64,000 bases of DNA from Escherichia coli (lineage in GTDB: Bacteria > Pseudomonadota > Gammaproteobacteria > Enterobacterales > Enterobacteriaceae). The notes under the pieces were generated by a model that did no database searches, had not been told where the DNA came from, and saw nothing but the letters and a program-made list of their open reading frames with translations. The DNA lies in NCBI RefSeq assembly GCF_003018255.1, contig NZ_CP027440.1; one strand, given 5' to 3'. The translations under genes were made by a program, and so were the position numbers. Position 1 is the first letter of the stretch; each line of letters opens with the position of its first letter. Of this stretch, positions 21,047-30,914 are shown one piece after another.

Positions 21047-21129
21047 CGGTCAGTGTACGCTTAACTGGTAAAGTCGGTGCCTGCCTCCGGGTGGATCATG
21101 TATGCGGGTTCGACCCCCGCCACTGACCG
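21047..21129 (+). other. tRNA-like structured element (acceptor-like stem plus canonical T-arm), not a canonical tRNA
   Basis: Closing stem CGGTCAGTG (21047-21055) pairs with CACTGACCG (21121-21129). T-arm is GCGGG-TTCGACC-CCCGC (21104-21120). TA follows the 7-bp stem, and a D-like hairpin has loop AACTGGTA. No convincing anticodon stem and no encoded CCA. Confidence 0.4.
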
Positions 21130-27798: not shown

Positions 27799-28261
27799 CC
27801 GCCGAACGGCGGGCCTCAAGGCCGGGGAGTTTCACCCCCTTTGAATAAATCCAGCGGATATACTGCTTACAGGACGCGGGCATCTGCCCGGCATTGATCA
27901 GGCGCAGAAGCGTGGAGTTGCGAAAGTTCGTTTCACCGGCCCAGAAGATCCACGAAGCCAGCGCCACCGTCTGACCACGGGTAAGCGGCACCTGAACACG
28001 CCGATCAATGGCCGCAAAGGCCCATTTCATGTCCTTTTCCAGTAGTTCCAGGCATTCTTCATCTGTCAGGGTCATACCCGGTTTCACATCCGGGCCGGTA
28101 TGGCCGTAACAGATGGTGGGTGTACCGGAGGGATCGATATACGTGGAGTTTTCTTTCCCTTCCCAGTAACCGGTGTAATGCGTGGCAATCGTGAACGTCC
28201 CGGCACCGGCCAGAACAAGGGCAATCAGCTTTTTACGCAGTGGTGCGGGGAGTTTTGGCAT
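27761..28261 (-). CDS. SAR endolysin (T4-lysozyme-like, GH24)
   Basis: It has an N-terminal weakly hydrophobic signal-anchor LIALVLAGAGTFTIA. The catalytic spacing E-x8-D-x5-T is seen in YWEGKENSTYIDPSGTPT. Confidence 0.8.
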   Translation of the reverse strand: MPKLPAPLRKKLIALVLAGAGTFTIATHYTGYWEGKENSTYIDPSGTPTICYGHTGPDVKPGMTLTDEECLELLEKDMKWAFAAIDRRVQVPLTRGQTVALASWIFWAGETNFRNSTLLRLINAGQMPASCKQYIRWIYSKGVKLPGLEARRSADEWLCRYDLPKV

Positions 28262-28332: not shown

Positions 28333-28758
28333 TCAGAAAAGTGGCGGTTGCGTTCTTGCCAGATGCAGACGGCGCTGTTCGCGTATGACGGTATAAATCT
28401 GGGTTTCTGACATCCGGTAATGGCGGCGAAGGGATTCAATTTTCTCGCCCCGGTCCCAGCGCGAAAATATCTCATTGTTTCGCAGCTCGGCAAAGAGAGA
28501 TTCCCCGACCGGCAGGTAATAACCCCGTCCGCCCATATAGGCTGCCTGAGCCGCAGCCACCTTGCGTGCCAGTTTACCGGCCAGTACCGGCTCAATCCCC
28601 TGACGCTGAAGTTCTGCGCCGGTGACTTCAACCAGTTCTGACAGGGTCCGCGGCCAGTTCTTTTTGAGAACATCATCAGGGATGTCATCAAGGCGGTCGA
28701 TAAGGGCGTGCAGTTGCTCACTGTCACCACCAAACATGCTCATCTGAGTTTCTGCCAT
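28333..28758 (-). CDS. Mor/C-family transcriptional activator
   Basis: 141 aa. The C-terminal segment YYLPVGESLFAELRNNEIFSRW...MSETQIYTVIREQR is typical of the Mor family. It lies downstream of a gemA-like gene as in Mu. Confidence 0.75.
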   Translation of the reverse strand: MAETQMSMFGGDSEQLHALIDRLDDIPDDVLKKNWPRTLSELVEVTGAELQRQGIEPVLAGKLARKVAAAQAAYMGGRGYYLPVGESLFAELRNNEIFSRWDRGEKIESLRRHYRMSETQIYTVIREQRRLHLARTQPPLF

Positions 28759-28827: not shown

Positions 28828-29337
28828 TTAACGGGGAAGTGATTTTTCATACTGCCTGCAAACGGCGTCATACCCCATCAGCGTGCGTTCGGGCATTCCC
28901 ATCGCGGCCAGCATTTTGCGGCGGTGCCATCGCTTGAGACGCTCCAGCACATCTGAGGCCAGGGCGGGGTGTTGCTCCAGCCACTGCCAGTTTGCCACAC
29001 CTTCGCCGCCGTTTTGCGCGGCCGTCTGCGATTTCACCCAGCGGTTAAGGGCGGTTTCCGCACCATCGGTGATAAAGCCCTGCCGGTGCATCACCTTCCA
29101 GATGGCGCGAATTTTGGCGGTCACCGTACCCGGTTTTAAGGCCCGGTTAACCGGGTTCTGACGCACTTTAAAACCGCGTTTTTTGAAAACATCCAGCACG
29201 CGGGATAACTCATCCGGTGACATATCCCGGCAGCTGGTTTTGCCGGTGGCTGCCAGCAGCGCGGATGTATAAGTCTCATCATCCAGGGCAAGCTCGCGCT
29301 TTGCCACATGAATGGCGGATATCAGTTTTCCTCTCAT
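28828..29337 (-). CDS. GemA-like regulatory protein (Mu gp16, DUF1018)
   Basis: 169 aa, MRGKLISAIHVAKRELALDDETY... is typical of the gp16 family. Confidence 0.7.
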   Translation of the reverse strand: MRGKLISAIHVAKRELALDDETYTSALLAATGKTSCRDMSPDELSRVLDVFKKRGFKVRQNPVNRALKPGTVTAKIRAIWKVMHRQGFITDGAETALNRWVKSQTAAQNGGEGVANWQWLEQHPALASDVLERLKRWHRRKMLAAMGMPERTLMGYDAVCRQYEKSLPR

Positions 29338-29630
29338 ACCGTATTTACCTTTTTACGGACATGGAAAGCCTTTTCTGCCTCATCCCACCGGGCATGGTGT
29401 GTTGGTGGAATAATCATTATGTGCCAGCCATCTCTGGTTGTTATCCGGCAGAAAAATTCACCGCTATATAACACAATGGCCTGCTGAATGAGCGCATCAG
29501 CCGCCCGTTCAACCGGATGTCTTTTATCAAAAAAGCAGATGATTTTTCGACATAACCACCGGGTAATAACAAATGCGCCGAAAAAGGATGTGATATATAA
29601 GCACCAGAACAACAGAGAACTATTGTCCAT
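29334..29630 (-). CDS. Hypothetical membrane-anchored protein, 98 aa
   Basis: N-terminal TM LLFWCLYITSFFGAFVITRWL. It overlaps gemA by 4 nt and lies in the AT-rich block. Confidence 0.5.
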   Translation of the reverse strand: MDNSSLLFWCLYITSFFGAFVITRWLCRKIICFFDKRHPVERAADALIQQAIVLYSGEFFCRITTRDGWHIMIIPPTHHARWDEAEKAFHVRKKVNTV

Positions 29631-29817
29631 TATCTTTCTCCTTATTCAGTCTTCTGCGACATTCGGCACAGTCATCAGGGCTTTCAAATGTATCCGGCTC
29701 GCGATTATGAGCCAGATATAACCACCGCCTACATATACTGATATTATCGCCAGTTTTAAAAAAATGATGCTTCTTAGCCATCAGAGGGCGCGCCCATCCA
29801 GCGGGTAGACTATTCAT
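29620..29817 (-). CDS. Hypothetical Cys-containing small protein, 65 aa
   Basis: Cys residues at ISICRRW and DDCAECRR suggest possible metal binding. It overlaps both neighbours. Confidence 0.45.
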   Translation of the reverse strand: MNSLPAGWARPLMAKKHHFFKTGDNISICRRWLYLAHNREPDTFESPDDCAECRRRLNKEKDNGQ

Positions 29818-30184
29818 TTGCTTTATCCTCCATACTGGACAAAATCATCTGTATTAATGTCGGGCGTGGAGATATACGCATTTCATTAAGCGTCTGAAGG
29901 GCAGCAACAGCTGCCTGTTTATCGGTGCCTTTGGCAATTTCCGCAAGAGAATGCACAATCCATAACGGACTTAACGCCACGACTGAATCCAGAATCATGT
30001 CATCCATAATAATTTCTGACACATCCCGCTTATCACATTCCTTATCCATAAAAGAAACGATTTTTTCCACATCTTCCGGTTTCATGCCTCCGGCGATAAG
30101 AAATTTGCGATACTCATAAGACGATCTTAATTCAATACTCATATTCATCTCCTGTAACTCTGACAAGGACGTGATTTTTCTCAT
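29810..30184 (-). CDS. Hypothetical acidic helical protein, 124 aa
   Basis: Net acidic with no recognisable motif. ATGA overlap with the upstream ORF. Confidence 0.5.
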   Translation of the reverse strand: MRKITSLSELQEMNMSIELRSSYEYRKFLIAGGMKPEDVEKIVSFMDKECDKRDVSEIIMDDMILDSVVALSPLWIVHSLAEIAKGTDKQAAVAALQTLNEMRISPRPTLIQMILSSMEDKANE

Positions 30185-30366
30185 TTATGTTTTCCAGTAA
30201 TACGGATATATATGTCGATAAGAAGATTCATAATAAACAGGAAGAGCGACATCCTGATAAAGAACCAAATATCTGGCATCATGGACAGGTTTCCTGTAAT
30301 CGCAAATATAACCCCCCCCCCCAACACCGGAACGAAAATTGCGAAAAATACAAGTCTCTTTATCAT
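30181..30366 (-). CDS. Hypothetical two-TM membrane protein, 61 aa, containing a G11 homopolymer
   Basis: MIKRLVFFAIFVPVLGGGVIFAITGNLSMMPDIWFFIRMSLFLFIMNLLIDIYIRITGKHK. ATGA overlaps at both ends. Confidence 0.5.
   Translation of the reverse strand: MIKRLVFFAIFVPVLGGGVIFAITGNLSMMPDIWFFIRMSLFLFIMNLLIDIYIRITGKHK
30312..30322 (-). repeat. Homopolymeric tract C11 (G11 on the coding strand)
   Basis: Counted directly: 30312-30322 are all C. The tract encodes L-GGG-V of the 61-aa ORF. Confidence 0.9.
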
Positions 30367-30914
30367 GGCGTTAACTCCCGTAATACAGCGTCCTCGGCAG
30401 TCCGGCGATGGTGATAAATAAAATTCACCGTACTCTCGGATAATTCAAATTTCTCGCCTATTTCCCGGAAGGTAAGACGTCGTGGTGATTCAGCATCCCG
30501 TAATTCACGAATAAGATGAACATCATCGTCAGGTATACGGGTGAAGGGCAGCAATTCTCCGTATTTTTTCATGCTTACGCCAATATATCGCGCCCGATTG
30601 TGGACAGAATCCCGGTCTCGCCCCAGATATTCTCCTATTTGCTTACCGGTCATCGTTCTGGCATTTTTTCGGATAAATTTATCTTCATCATGTTTAAATC
30701 TTGGACGTTTGCATTTGAGCAACTCCGGGTAAGTACCGCGTAATAAAACAATCCGGTTATGTACACCCCAGAAACTTCTTTTTACCCTGACAGCAATATC
30801 CTTAACCGGGGTGGATGGATAAAGCGCAATCAGCAGCGCATCTTCTTCAGGTGTCCACGCACGGACATGAGCAGGTGCCTGACCTTTTCGCCCCATGGGT
30901 TGTAAAATCATCAT
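30363..30914 (-). CDS. Putative DNA-binding protein with three HTH-like modules (Myb/SANT-like WTPEEDALL plus two further HTH segments)
   Basis: 183 aa. Candidate modules are WTPEEDALLIALY...DIAVRV, MTGKQIGEYLGRDRDSVHNRARYIG and LTFREIGEKFELSESTVNFIYHHR. Confidence 0.5.
   Translation of the reverse strand: MMILQPMGRKGQAPAHVRAWTPEEDALLIALYPSTPVKDIAVRVKRSFWGVHNRIVLLRGTYPELLKCKRPRFKHDEDKFIRKNARTMTGKQIGEYLGRDRDSVHNRARYIGVSMKKYGELLPFTRIPDDDVHLIRELRDAESPRRLTFREIGEKFELSESTVNFIYHHRRTAEDAVLRELTP

What the first reader, a model, noticed from the sequence alone, without database searches (positions are those of the whole stretch)
30312..30322. G11 homopolymer inside the 61-aa membrane ORF: potential slipped-strand switch with polar reach toward gemA-mor
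Eleven consecutive G (coding strand) encode the Gly-Gly-Gly of FVPVLGGGVIF. Tracts of this length are rare in E. coli and its phages, and they are classic phase-variation substrates. A +/-1 slip would truncate this ORF. Every downstream gene is start-stop overlapped (124, 65 and 98 aa, then gemA, with mor after a 69-bp gap). A slip could therefore lower expression of the whole distal early operon, including the activator needed for late genes.
Basis: partly seen in the sequence, partly recalled or inferred. Interest (0 to 1): 0.6.

Follow-up and report, generated by a model that had tools for sequence, protein, structure and literature searches.

The report
Recently evolved slippery poly-G in prophage gene
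A run of eleven G's inside a tiny membrane-protein gene of a Mu-like prophage is real, arose recently in one E. coli lineage, and changes length between otherwise identical isolates, but the sequence gives no sign that it controls the downstream phage regulators gemA and mor.

Summary
G11 lies on the minus strand at 30312-30322, inside a 61-aa two-helix membrane ORF (30366..30181) in the early region of an Sp18-like Mu-like prophage. The window matches E. coli strain War.

The tract is not conserved. Most relatives carry interrupted versions of the same 13 nt: G5TTGGTTTT, G6TGGTTTT or G9TTTT. Of 5,426 complete E. coli genomes, only War has G11. The nearest relatives differ from the window by 6-9 substitutions in 19 kb, and three of these lie inside the tract. 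The run therefore grew recently by local T-to-G changes.

The tract does vary in length. Draft assemblies that match the window over 3-6 kb, apart from one SNP private to War, carry G8, G9, G11 (228 contigs), G12 (21-22 contigs) or G13.

A polar effect on gemA-mor is not supported:
- The +1 frame stays open and stops 4 nt before the normal stop.
- The -1 frame stops on an ATGA overlap with an in-frame ATG.
- The next gene has its own AGGAG site 38 nt downstream.
- The exposed RNA would be at most 136 nt and is not C-rich.

Verdict: a lineage-specific hypermutable on/off tract in an accessory gene. It is a new member of a known kind and of modest interest.

The parts
30312..30322 (-). G11 homopolymer (C11 on the plus strand), codons 15-19 of the 61-aa ORF. 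This is the hypermutable tract.
   Evidence: Searches confirm the run. Length variants G8, G9, G12 and G13 occur in otherwise identical contigs.
30310..30322 (-). The 13-nt allelic block. The window has G11TT. Relatives have G5TTGGTTTT, G6TGGTTTT, G9TTTT, G6TTGGTTTT (Sakai Sp18, in frame via TGG) or G4ATTGGTTTT.
30181..30366 (-). 61-aa ORF encoding a small protein with two hydrophobic segments (about residues 4-27 and 33-58). The tract sits in the first segment. No Pfam family, one weak unknown-function PHROG hit, and homologues only in E. coli and Shigella Sp18-like prophages.
30375..30379 (-). GGGAG Shine-Dalgarno-like site 8 nt upstream of the 61-aa ORF start. The ATG overlaps the stop of the upstream 183-aa gene as ATGA.
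   Evidence: Read directly from the sequence.
30363..30914 (-). Upstream 183-aa helix-turn-helix gene (phrog_323, a D5-like transcriptional regulator). Its stop overlaps the start of the 61-aa ORF.
30279..30281 (-). TGA reached after a -1 or +2 slip (G10 or G13). It lies inside ATGATG, the in-frame codons M29 and M30, so termination and possible re-initiation overlap. The remaining 33-aa ORF is recorded on 117 contigs.
30185..30187 (-). TAA reached after a +1 or -2 slip (G12 or G9). It ends 4 nt before the normal TGA (30183..30181).
   Evidence: The G12 and G9 products are recorded on 21-22 and 5-6 contigs.
30149..30153 (-). AGGAG Shine-Dalgarno site 6 nt upstream of ATG 30142, the start of the next gene.
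   Evidence: Sequence. PGAP and the collection's gene calls use this start. The phrog_1988 profile aligns from its position 1 to residue 1 of the 110-aa form.
29810..30142 (-). Next gene, 110 aa (phrog_1988, function unknown). The 124-aa longest ORF would start at 30184.
29620..29817 (-). 65-aa early gene (phrog_2358, function unknown).
29334..29630 (-). 98-aa early gene (phrog_17269, function unknown).
28828..29337 (-). gemA homologue (PF06252, E = 3e-30).
28333..28758 (-). mor homologue (PF08765, E = 3e-32), followed directly by the lysozyme gene.

Best explanation
The G11 is a real, recently arisen, lineage-specific hypermutable homopolymer inside a small accessory early gene of an Sp18-like Mu-like prophage.

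Origin. The ancestral sequence was G-rich but interrupted (G5TTGGTTTT or G6TGGTTTT, encoding L-G-V/G-G-F). Successive local T-to-G conversions next to the G run produced G9TTTT and then G11TT. There are two possible routes. One is misalignment (dislocation) mutagenesis at the run boundary. The other is a +G slip followed by a frame-restoring -T slip. The changes also replaced the nearly invariant Phe19 with Val. This suggests the tract is a product of mutation pressure rather than of selection on the protein.

Consequence. At 11 G the run slips readily during replication. Descendants of this prophage carry G8 to G13, and this switches the 61-aa two-helix membrane protein between intact (G11, or G8 in frame) and destroyed (G9, G12, G13 and presumably G10).

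Reach. The effect is most likely confined to this one protein. Both shifted frames keep ribosomes on almost the whole ORF, or terminate on a restart codon, and the next gene has its own strong ribosome-binding site.

Shown: the tract, its allelic series, its length polymorphism among near-identical prophages, and the reading-frame consequences.
Inferred: the mutational mechanism, the actual switching rate, the absence of polarity, and the absence of an adaptive role.
For: Tract and rarity.

The tract is derived and rare:
- Only strain War among 5,426 complete E. coli genomes has G11. One genome (93_0495) has G9TTTT and about 15 have G6TGGTTTT.
- IMG/VR and metagenome loci all carry interrupted forms.
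- Exact-protein counts are at least 1000 contigs each for VLGVGFIF, VLGGGFIF and the Sakai form, against 228 for the G11 form.

Local hot spot: over 19 kb the closest prophages differ from the window by 6-9 substitutions, and three of them are at 30312, 30313 and 30316. The chance of such clustering is about 1e-6 to 6e-6. A parallel V17G change occurs in the Sakai-type lineage (P0038, 46 contigs).

Length polymorphism: G12 (L022, L023), G9 (L025), G8 (L026) and G13 (L027) contigs are identical to the window over 3-6 kb, apart from the tract and one SNP private to War. G11, G9 and G13 sit on what appears to be the same contig in different isolates, with lengths of 55,580, 55,578 and 55,582 nt.

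OFF fraction: at least about 10% of contigs with the long tract are out of frame (26 or more against 229). For the short-tract alleles it is 6 out of more than 2000 for the +1 class.

Frame consequences and downstream start.

The gene is dispensable-looking and restricted. It has no homologue in 50,697 phage records other than an inserted Mu-like region, and the family is confined to E. coli and Shigella.

Precedent: gonococcal pgtA has G11 alleles that phase-vary, also when cloned in E. coli, and GGGAGCGGGG alleles that do not (PMC2193922).
Against: - No raw reads could be examined. Within-culture heterogeneity, the switching rate and reversibility are untested.
- Some length variants could be homopolymer errors of sequencing or assembly. 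Several other variants I met came from visibly error-rich assemblies (L028, L033, L042) and were set aside.
- G10 could not be detected by the protein look-up, because its 28-aa product is too short to be called.
- The absence of polarity is inferred from sequence only. Rho-dependent effects were not measured.
- The long-G allele type also occurs in a second prophage background (L040, G9TTATA). That could mean recombination, independent origin, or selection for the tract.
Confidence: 0.68

Rival explanations
1. The G11 is a phase-variation switch whose slips truncate the 61-aa ORF. Through translational coupling and polarity this lowers expression of the distal early operon (the 110/124-, 65- and 98-aa genes, gemA and mor) and so of late genes.
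For: The tract is hypervariable among isolates. With longest-ORF starts, the genes from the 61-aa ORF to gemA overlap start to stop. Mor and GemA are confirmed at the end of the same strand. From established knowledge of phage Mu, mor is the last gene of the early transcript and is needed for later transcription.
Against: - The +1 class stops 4 nt before the normal stop. The -1 class stops on an ATGA overlap with in-frame ATG ATG, preceded by AGGA.
- The next gene is called at 110 aa by PGAP and by the collection's gene calls, and the phrog_1988 profile starts there. It has AGGAG 6 nt upstream and lies 38 nt after the stop.
- At most 136 nt of RNA would be exposed, with C about equal to G at 17-18%.
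- The tract is absent from nearly all related prophages, so it cannot be part of their regulatory design.
- Frameshifted alleles sit in prophages with all neighbouring genes intact.
Confidence: 0.06
2. An adaptive contingency locus. The long tract was selected in this lineage because stochastic ON/OFF switching of the membrane protein gives a bet-hedging benefit to the lysogen or the phage. The protein might, for example, cause exclusion, toxicity or a membrane effect.
For: - The tract meets the length and position criteria used for phase-variable genes: poly-G of 7 or more, inside the ORF (PMC6321876).
- Length varies among near-clonal isolates.
- The long-G allele type occurs in two prophage backgrounds.
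- Glycine substitutions arose in parallel in another lineage.
- Contingency loci have just been reported in lytic coliphages (PMC12633550).
Against: - The protein has no known function or phenotype.
- The tract is confined to a small minority of carriers.
- Its growth replaced the nearly invariant Phe19.
- The ORF is also frameshifted at short runs in other lineages, which suggests a gene under weak constraint.
- G11 remains the clear majority state, as expected for a recent ancestor plus slippage noise.
Confidence: 0.15
3. The tract is real, but its length variation is a technical artefact. G11 is stable in the bacteria, and G8-G13 come from homopolymer errors in library PCR, sequencing or assembly.
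For: - Long G runs are hard to sequence. The pgtA authors warned that PCR shifts poly-G lengths.
- Several other variants of this ORF come from assemblies with many broken genes (L028, L033, L042).
- About 20 NCBI contigs start right after the tract (P0024). This shows that assemblers have trouble there.
Against: - The variant contigs have no other difference from the window in 3-6 kb, and all flanking genes are intact.
- Differences of two or three bases (G9, G13, G8) as the assembled majority are unlikely from read errors.
- G12 recurs in 21-22 contigs from different runs.
- The OFF fraction is much higher for the long tract than for short-tract alleles handled by the same pipelines.
Confidence: 0.1

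Closest known systems
Neisseria gonorrhoeae pgtA poly-G alleles (Banerjee et al. 2002, PMC2193922)
   Same: Some strains have an in-ORF G11 (or G14) that is the ON length, and +1 or -1 slips truncate the protein. Other strains carry an interrupted, non-variable version of the same codons (GGGAGCGGGG) in an otherwise nearly identical gene. The G11 allele also slipped when cloned in E. coli.
   Different: pgtA has a known enzymatic function and a clinical correlation, and its switching was shown experimentally. Here the protein has no known function and switching is inferred from differences between assemblies. The host is E. coli and the gene is on a prophage.
Simple-sequence contingency loci of Campylobacter, Haemophilus and Neisseria (criteria as in PhasomeIt, PMC6321876)
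   Same: A poly-G of at least 7-8 inside a reading frame. Tract length differs between closely related isolates, with ON and OFF frames.
   Different: Those loci are usually conserved as repeats across strains and affect surface or restriction-modification functions. This tract is a minority, recently derived allele in an accessory prophage gene.
Contingency loci in lytic coliphages T2 and T4 (Gomez, Barrick and Waters 2025 preprint, PMC12633550)
   Same: A homopolymer inside a phage gene gives frequent, reversible frameshifts that diversify the population.
   Different: Those are mostly A runs of 6-9 in lytic phages, replicated by phage polymerases and tied to defence evasion. This is a G11 in a temperate, transposable prophage. 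It is copied mostly by the host replisome while integrated, and has no known selective trade-off.
Misalignment (dislocation) mutagenesis and run-adjacent mutagenesis
   Same: Substitutions convert the base next to a homopolymer into the run's base, so runs grow. This rests on my own knowledge of Kunkel's dislocation model. Guanine runs also raise substitution rates in nearby DNA in yeast (PMC4928981). The series G6TGG to G9 to G11 fits this pattern.
   Different: The mechanism was not tested here. An alternative route of +G slip followed by compensating -T slip is equally compatible. The frameshifted forms G6TTGGTTTT, G7TGGTTTT and G11TTT exist. The yeast effect was seen for runs of 13 or more and depends on REV1.
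Nonsense polarity in operons (Rho-dependent termination after premature stops)
   Same: A premature stop in an upstream gene of a long polycistronic early transcript could lower distal genes.
   Different: The features it needs are not found here: a long untranslated stretch, C-rich and G-poor RNA, and dependence of the next gene on upstream translation.

Membership tests
SSR-mediated phase-variable (contingency) locus | Repeat tract above the length at which slippage becomes frequent (poly-G/C of at least 7-8) | tested here: met
   G11 at 30312-30322. The cut-off is from PMC6321876.
SSR-mediated phase-variable (contingency) locus | The tract is placed so that length changes switch expression (inside the ORF or promoter) | tested here: met
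   The tract covers codons 15-19 of the 61-aa ORF. G8, G11 and G14 are in frame. G9 and G12 give a 59-60-aa out-of-frame product. G10 and G13 give 28-29 aa.
SSR-mediated phase-variable (contingency) locus | Tract length differs among closely related isolates | tested here: met
   G8, G9, G11, G12 and G13 occur in contigs that otherwise match the window over 3-6 kb, apart from one SNP private to War. Sequencing error was not excluded by read-level data.
SSR-mediated phase-variable (contingency) locus | High-frequency, reversible switching within a clonal population | not testable with these tools
   No raw reads or cultures were available. It needs per-read length histograms, fluctuation assays or reporter fusions.
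SSR-mediated phase-variable (contingency) locus | The repeat is maintained across strains or relatives, as a signature of selection for mutability | tested here: not met
   Only 1 of 5,426 complete genomes has G11. The common alleles are interrupted, each on at least 1000 contigs against 228 for G11. All 13 IMG/VR and metagenome loci are interrupted.
SSR-mediated phase-variable (contingency) locus | The gene product has a function subject to fluctuating selection | tested here: inconclusive
   The product is a small two-segment hydrophobic protein with no Pfam family and only a weak hit to a PHROG of unknown function. No homologue was found in characterised phages.
Polar (operon-wide) switch through nonsense polarity or translational coupling | The frameshift leaves a long ribosome-free stretch of mRNA | tested here: not met
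   The +1 class stops 4 nt before the normal stop. The -1 class leaves at most 136 nt and stops on an ATGA overlap with in-frame ATG ATG.
Polar (operon-wide) switch through nonsense polarity or translational coupling | The downstream gene depends on upstream translation (overlapping stop-start, no ribosome-binding site of its own) | tested here: not met
   AGGAG lies 6 nt before ATG 30142, with a 38-nt spacer. The 110-aa start is used by PGAP and by the collection's gene calls, and it matches position 1 of the phrog_1988 profile. An overlapping ATG at 30184 exists but has only a weak GGAAAA upstream.
Polar (operon-wide) switch through nonsense polarity or translational coupling | C-rich, G-poor RNA suitable for Rho loading downstream of the premature stop | tested here: not met
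   The stretch is 17% C and 18% G. In 78-nt windows C/G is at most 1.5, with only 13-17 C. This is a crude proxy.
Polar (operon-wide) switch through nonsense polarity or translational coupling | Measured drop of distal gene expression in OFF variants | not testable with these tools
   It needs RNA or protein measurements in isogenic G10, G11 and G12 lysogens.
Mu-like (Sp18-type) transposable prophage early operon | Mu-type gene order with Gam, gp11 and gp12 homologues, GemA and Mor on one strand, downstream of transposase A and B | tested here: met
   Pfam finds GemA and Mor. Gam, Gp11_C and Phage_Mu_Gp12 appear on identical loci. A Mu transposase and an AAA ATPase lie upstream. The region is 92.5% identical to Sakai Sp18, which is described as a predicted-intact Mu-like prophage (PMC2669165).

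The most novel reading that the evidence does not exclude
The locus may show the birth of a contingency locus in E. coli, caught with its intermediates. An interrupted G-rich codon block (G5TTGGTTTT) is converted step by step (G6TGGTTTT, G9TTTT, G11TT) into a homopolymer that now switches a prophage membrane protein on and off. The long-tract allele has spread to a second prophage background. If switching is selected, it would be a bet-hedging device of a temperate, transposable phage or its lysogen in Shiga-toxin-producing E. coli, a host that my general knowledge suggests makes little use of simple-repeat phase variation.
Probability: 0.12. Interest if true: 0.6.

Novelty: new member of a known kind. 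Interest (0 to 1): 0.33.

Why it matters
If the tract slips in vivo as the assemblies suggest, it is a natural marker of very recent divergence among isolates that carry this prophage. It is also a predictable site of false frameshift or pseudogene calls and of contig breaks in surveillance assemblies. The allelic series, from interrupted to pure G run within near-identical prophages, is a clean natural example of how a hypermutable homopolymer can arise from ordinary codons. It has little bearing on control of the Mu-like lytic programme, because the sequence gives no support for an effect on gemA or mor. Its biological value depends on the unknown function of the 61-aa membrane protein.

Tried and rejected
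1. Detecting G10. Its 28-aa product and a G10-specific 55-aa TTG ORF are not in the protein collection. G10 could only hide among the 117 contigs with the 33-aa residual ORF. The look-up showed just one representative of the matching group, and it was G13.

2. Scans of public collections with a conserved 30-mer from the ORF. The species-representative genomes gave no hit. IMG/VR gave 9 loci and metagenomes gave 4, none with a long tract.

3. The phage GenBank collection. It held only two Stx-phage records with an inserted Mu-like region, and no homologue of the 61-aa protein in any other phage record.

4. A compensated double-frameshift allele (P0049), which looked like evidence for selection to keep the frame. 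I rejected it because its assembly has many fragmented genes and is probably error-rich. For the same reason the T6 and G5 variants in L028 and L033 were not used.

5. Templated origin of the G run from another copy. The window has no other G11 or C11.

6. Poly-G read-end artefacts and single-assembly error as the source of the G11 itself. I rejected both because a complete genome and 228 contigs share it.

7. Literature on strain War by accession number. Nothing was found.

8. One literature search failed on a formatting limit.

9. I considered programmed ribosomal frameshifting or transcriptional slippage at the run, which would make both products from one DNA length. Nothing available here could test it, and no supporting feature was seen.

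Full report
**Observation.** The plus strand reads C11 at 30312-30322, which is G11 on the minus strand. It is the only homopolymer longer than 8 nt in the 64-kb window. Dinucleotide-preserving shuffles give 0.03 such runs on average, and 3 of 100 shuffles had one. The tract lies in a 61-aa minus-strand ORF (30366..30181). The ORF starts 8 nt after a GGGAG and overlaps the stop of the upstream 183-aa helix-turn-helix gene as ATGA. The run encodes L15-G-G-G-V19 in the first of two hydrophobic segments.

**Context.**
- The region is the early operon of a Mu-like prophage. On one strand, downstream of a Mu-type transposase and an AAA ATPase, lie Gam, homologues of Mu gp11 and gp12, the 183-aa regulator, the 61-aa ORF, genes of 110, 65 and 98 aa with no known function, GemA, Mor and then lysozyme.
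- The window is identical to E. coli strain War (NZ_CP074717). At this locus it is 92.5% identical to prophage Sp18 of O157:H7 Sakai. Sp18 has been described as a predicted-intact Mu-like prophage (PMC2669165).
- The 61-aa protein has no Pfam family and only a weak hit to a PHROG of unknown function.
- It has no homologue in 50,697 phage records other than a Mu-like insert in an Stx phage. A search of 5.8 billion proteins found 16 clusters, all those with a source name from E. coli or Shigella.

**The tract is a derived, minority allele.** At the same 13 nucleotides, relatives carry the following forms:
- G5TTGGTTTT, encoding L-G-V-G-F.
- G6TGGTTTT, encoding L-G-G-G-F.
- G9TTTT, the same protein, found in strain 93_0495.
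- G6TTGGTTTT read as W-G-V-G-F, in Sakai Sp18.
- G4TGGTTGGTTTT and G4ATTGGTTTT.

Among 5,426 complete E. coli genomes, only War has G11, only 93_0495 has G9TTTT, and about 15 have G6TGGTTTT. Exact-sequence look-ups give at least 1000 contigs for each of the three common proteins and 228 for the G11 protein. One Logan contig with that protein was read and has G11 at the DNA level (L024).

**The tract is a mutational hot spot.**
- Over 19 kb, the closest complete-genome prophages differ from the window by 6-9 substitutions. These are the copy on plasmid p8479-1, Show KS 470-1 and strain 107.
- Three of those substitutions are T-to-G on the coding strand at 30312, 30313 and 30316. The chance of three such hits within 5 nt is about 1e-6 to 6e-6.
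- 93_0495 has the intermediate G9TTTT.
- A parallel Val17-to-Gly change occurred in the Sakai-type lineage (P0038, 46 contigs), and a further expansion to G8TGG is annotated there as frameshifted.
- The last step of the growth replaced Phe19, which is nearly invariant in the family, with Val.

I infer that the run grew by misalignment mutagenesis at its boundary. The alternative is alternating +G and compensating -T slips, and the frameshifted forms G6TTGGTTTT, G7TGGTTTT and G11TTT do exist. Neither route was tested. The dislocation model rests on my own knowledge. Guanine runs are reported to raise nearby substitution rates in yeast (PMC4928981).

**The tract varies in length among near-identical prophages.**
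- The predicted G12 product (60 aa) is on 21-22 contigs. The G9 product (59 aa) is on 5-6. The in-frame G8 product is on 1-2. A G11TTT product is on 2.
- The DNA confirms G12 (L022, L023), G9 (L025), G8 (L026), G13 (L027) and G11TTT (L041).
- Across 3-6 kb, the G8, G9, G11, G12 and G13 loci that were aligned differ from the window only in the tract and at 28129, where War is the odd one out.
- G11, G9 and G13 sit on contigs of 55,580, 55,578 and 55,582 nt, which appear to be the same contig in different isolates.
- Out-of-frame forms make up at least about 10% of long-tract contigs. For the short-tract alleles the +1 class is 6 in more than 2000.
- G10 cannot be seen this way, because its product is only 28 aa.
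- About 20 NCBI contigs begin just after the tract (P0024). This fits assembly trouble at the run, or differences between co-resident prophage copies.
- I could not inspect reads, so technical error remains possible for some variants. Majority calls two or three bases away from G11, in otherwise perfect contigs, argue for real changes.

- +1 or -2 (G12, G9): the new frame stays open for 41 more codons and stops at TAA 30187..30185, 4 nt before the normal stop. Ribosome cover of the mRNA is unchanged.
- -1 or +2 (G10, G13): translation stops after 28-29 codons at TGA 30281..30279. That TGA lies inside ATGATG, the in-frame Met29-Met30 codons, with AGGA 9 nt upstream. Gene callers call the resulting 33-aa ORF on 117 contigs.
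- Without re-initiation, only 136 nt would be bare before the next start. That stretch is 17% C and 18% G.
- PGAP and the collection's gene calls start the next gene at ATG 30142, 6 nt after AGGAG and 38 nt after the 61-aa stop. The phrog_1988 profile begins at that residue.

The features that polarity would need are therefore not found. This is inference from sequence, not a measurement.

**Comparison with known systems.**
- The closest parallel is gonococcal pgtA. Some strains have an in-frame G11 (or G14) that phase-varies, also when cloned in E. coli. Others have GGGAGCGGGG at the same place and are constitutive (PMC2193922).
- The tract meets the length and position criteria used to predict phase-variable genes (PMC6321876), and it varies between isolates. 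It fails the conservation criterion, and the gene has no known selectable function.
- Homopolymer contingency loci were recently described in lytic coliphages (PMC12633550). A G11 in a temperate Mu-like prophage would be one more instance of that idea.

**Verdict.** The proposed reach to gemA and mor is not supported. The tract is best read as a recent, mutation-driven hypermutable allele of an accessory gene. It is a new member of a known kind, of modest interest. It is useful mainly as a natural example of homopolymer birth and as a caution for annotation and assembly at this locus.

Noticed in passing
L029 1467 onward (GCA_047308285.1, JAPYXC010000002.1); corresponds to window 30316: Homology to the window starts inside the G tract: five G plus TTATATTT are kept. 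Upstream is unrelated DNA with a 361-aa minus-strand ORF and a gene with rve and Mu-transposase C-terminal Pfam hits. This is a rearrangement or insertion breakpoint within a long-tract-type allele.
   Followed up: partly
L040 3001-3180 (Logan SRR21910924): A second Sp18-like prophage background carries G9 followed by TTATA, the long-tract allele type, frameshifted. This background has Ile11 in the ORF and different downstream genes of 107 and 105 aa, a GemA of 170 aa and a Mor of 140 aa. Transfer by recombination or independent origin was not resolved.
   Followed up: partly
L039 858-1749 (LC727881.1); window 30155-30174: An Stx2c phage record with an inserted Mu-like region has an insertion of about 890 nt between the 61-aa ORF stop and the start of the 110-aa gene. 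Its tract is G4ATTGGTTTT.
   Followed up: no
window about 30150-30270 (-): The 3' two thirds of the 61-aa ORF and about 40 nt downstream are identical at the nucleotide level in the window, Sakai Sp18 and the more distant L009. The 5' third differs at roughly one site in ten. This could be a recombination patch or a constraint at the nucleic-acid level.
   Followed up: no
window about 30344-30350 (-); L002, L028, L032, L033: In the Sakai-type lineage the same ORF has a T7 run at codons 6-8. It appears as T6 or T8 in some assemblies, and some of those are visibly error-rich. The window has it interrupted as TATTTTT.
   Followed up: no
window about 21049-21128 (+): In closely related prophages, PGAP annotates a 'tRNA-OTHER' between the virion-morphogenesis and head-morphogenesis genes. 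ARAGORN finds no tRNA there in the window. It finds only tRNA-Phe at 56952-57027.
   Followed up: partly
NZ_CP074995.1 (plasmid p8479-1) and NZ_CP074994.1 (chromosome) of strain 8479: The same Mu-like prophage is present on a 167-kb plasmid and on the chromosome of one strain. Some genomes hold up to 4 matching places at this locus, and up to 6 for the 20-kb query. This fits active transposition.
   Followed up: no
window 28129: War has a private substitution in the lysozyme gene region. Every relative examined has the other base, including the draft contigs that share the G11-type allele and cover this position.
   Followed up: no
window 38775: Strain 107 has an 11-nt insertion (TTGAAGATGT plus one T) relative to the window, near the repressor end of the prophage.
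   Followed up: no
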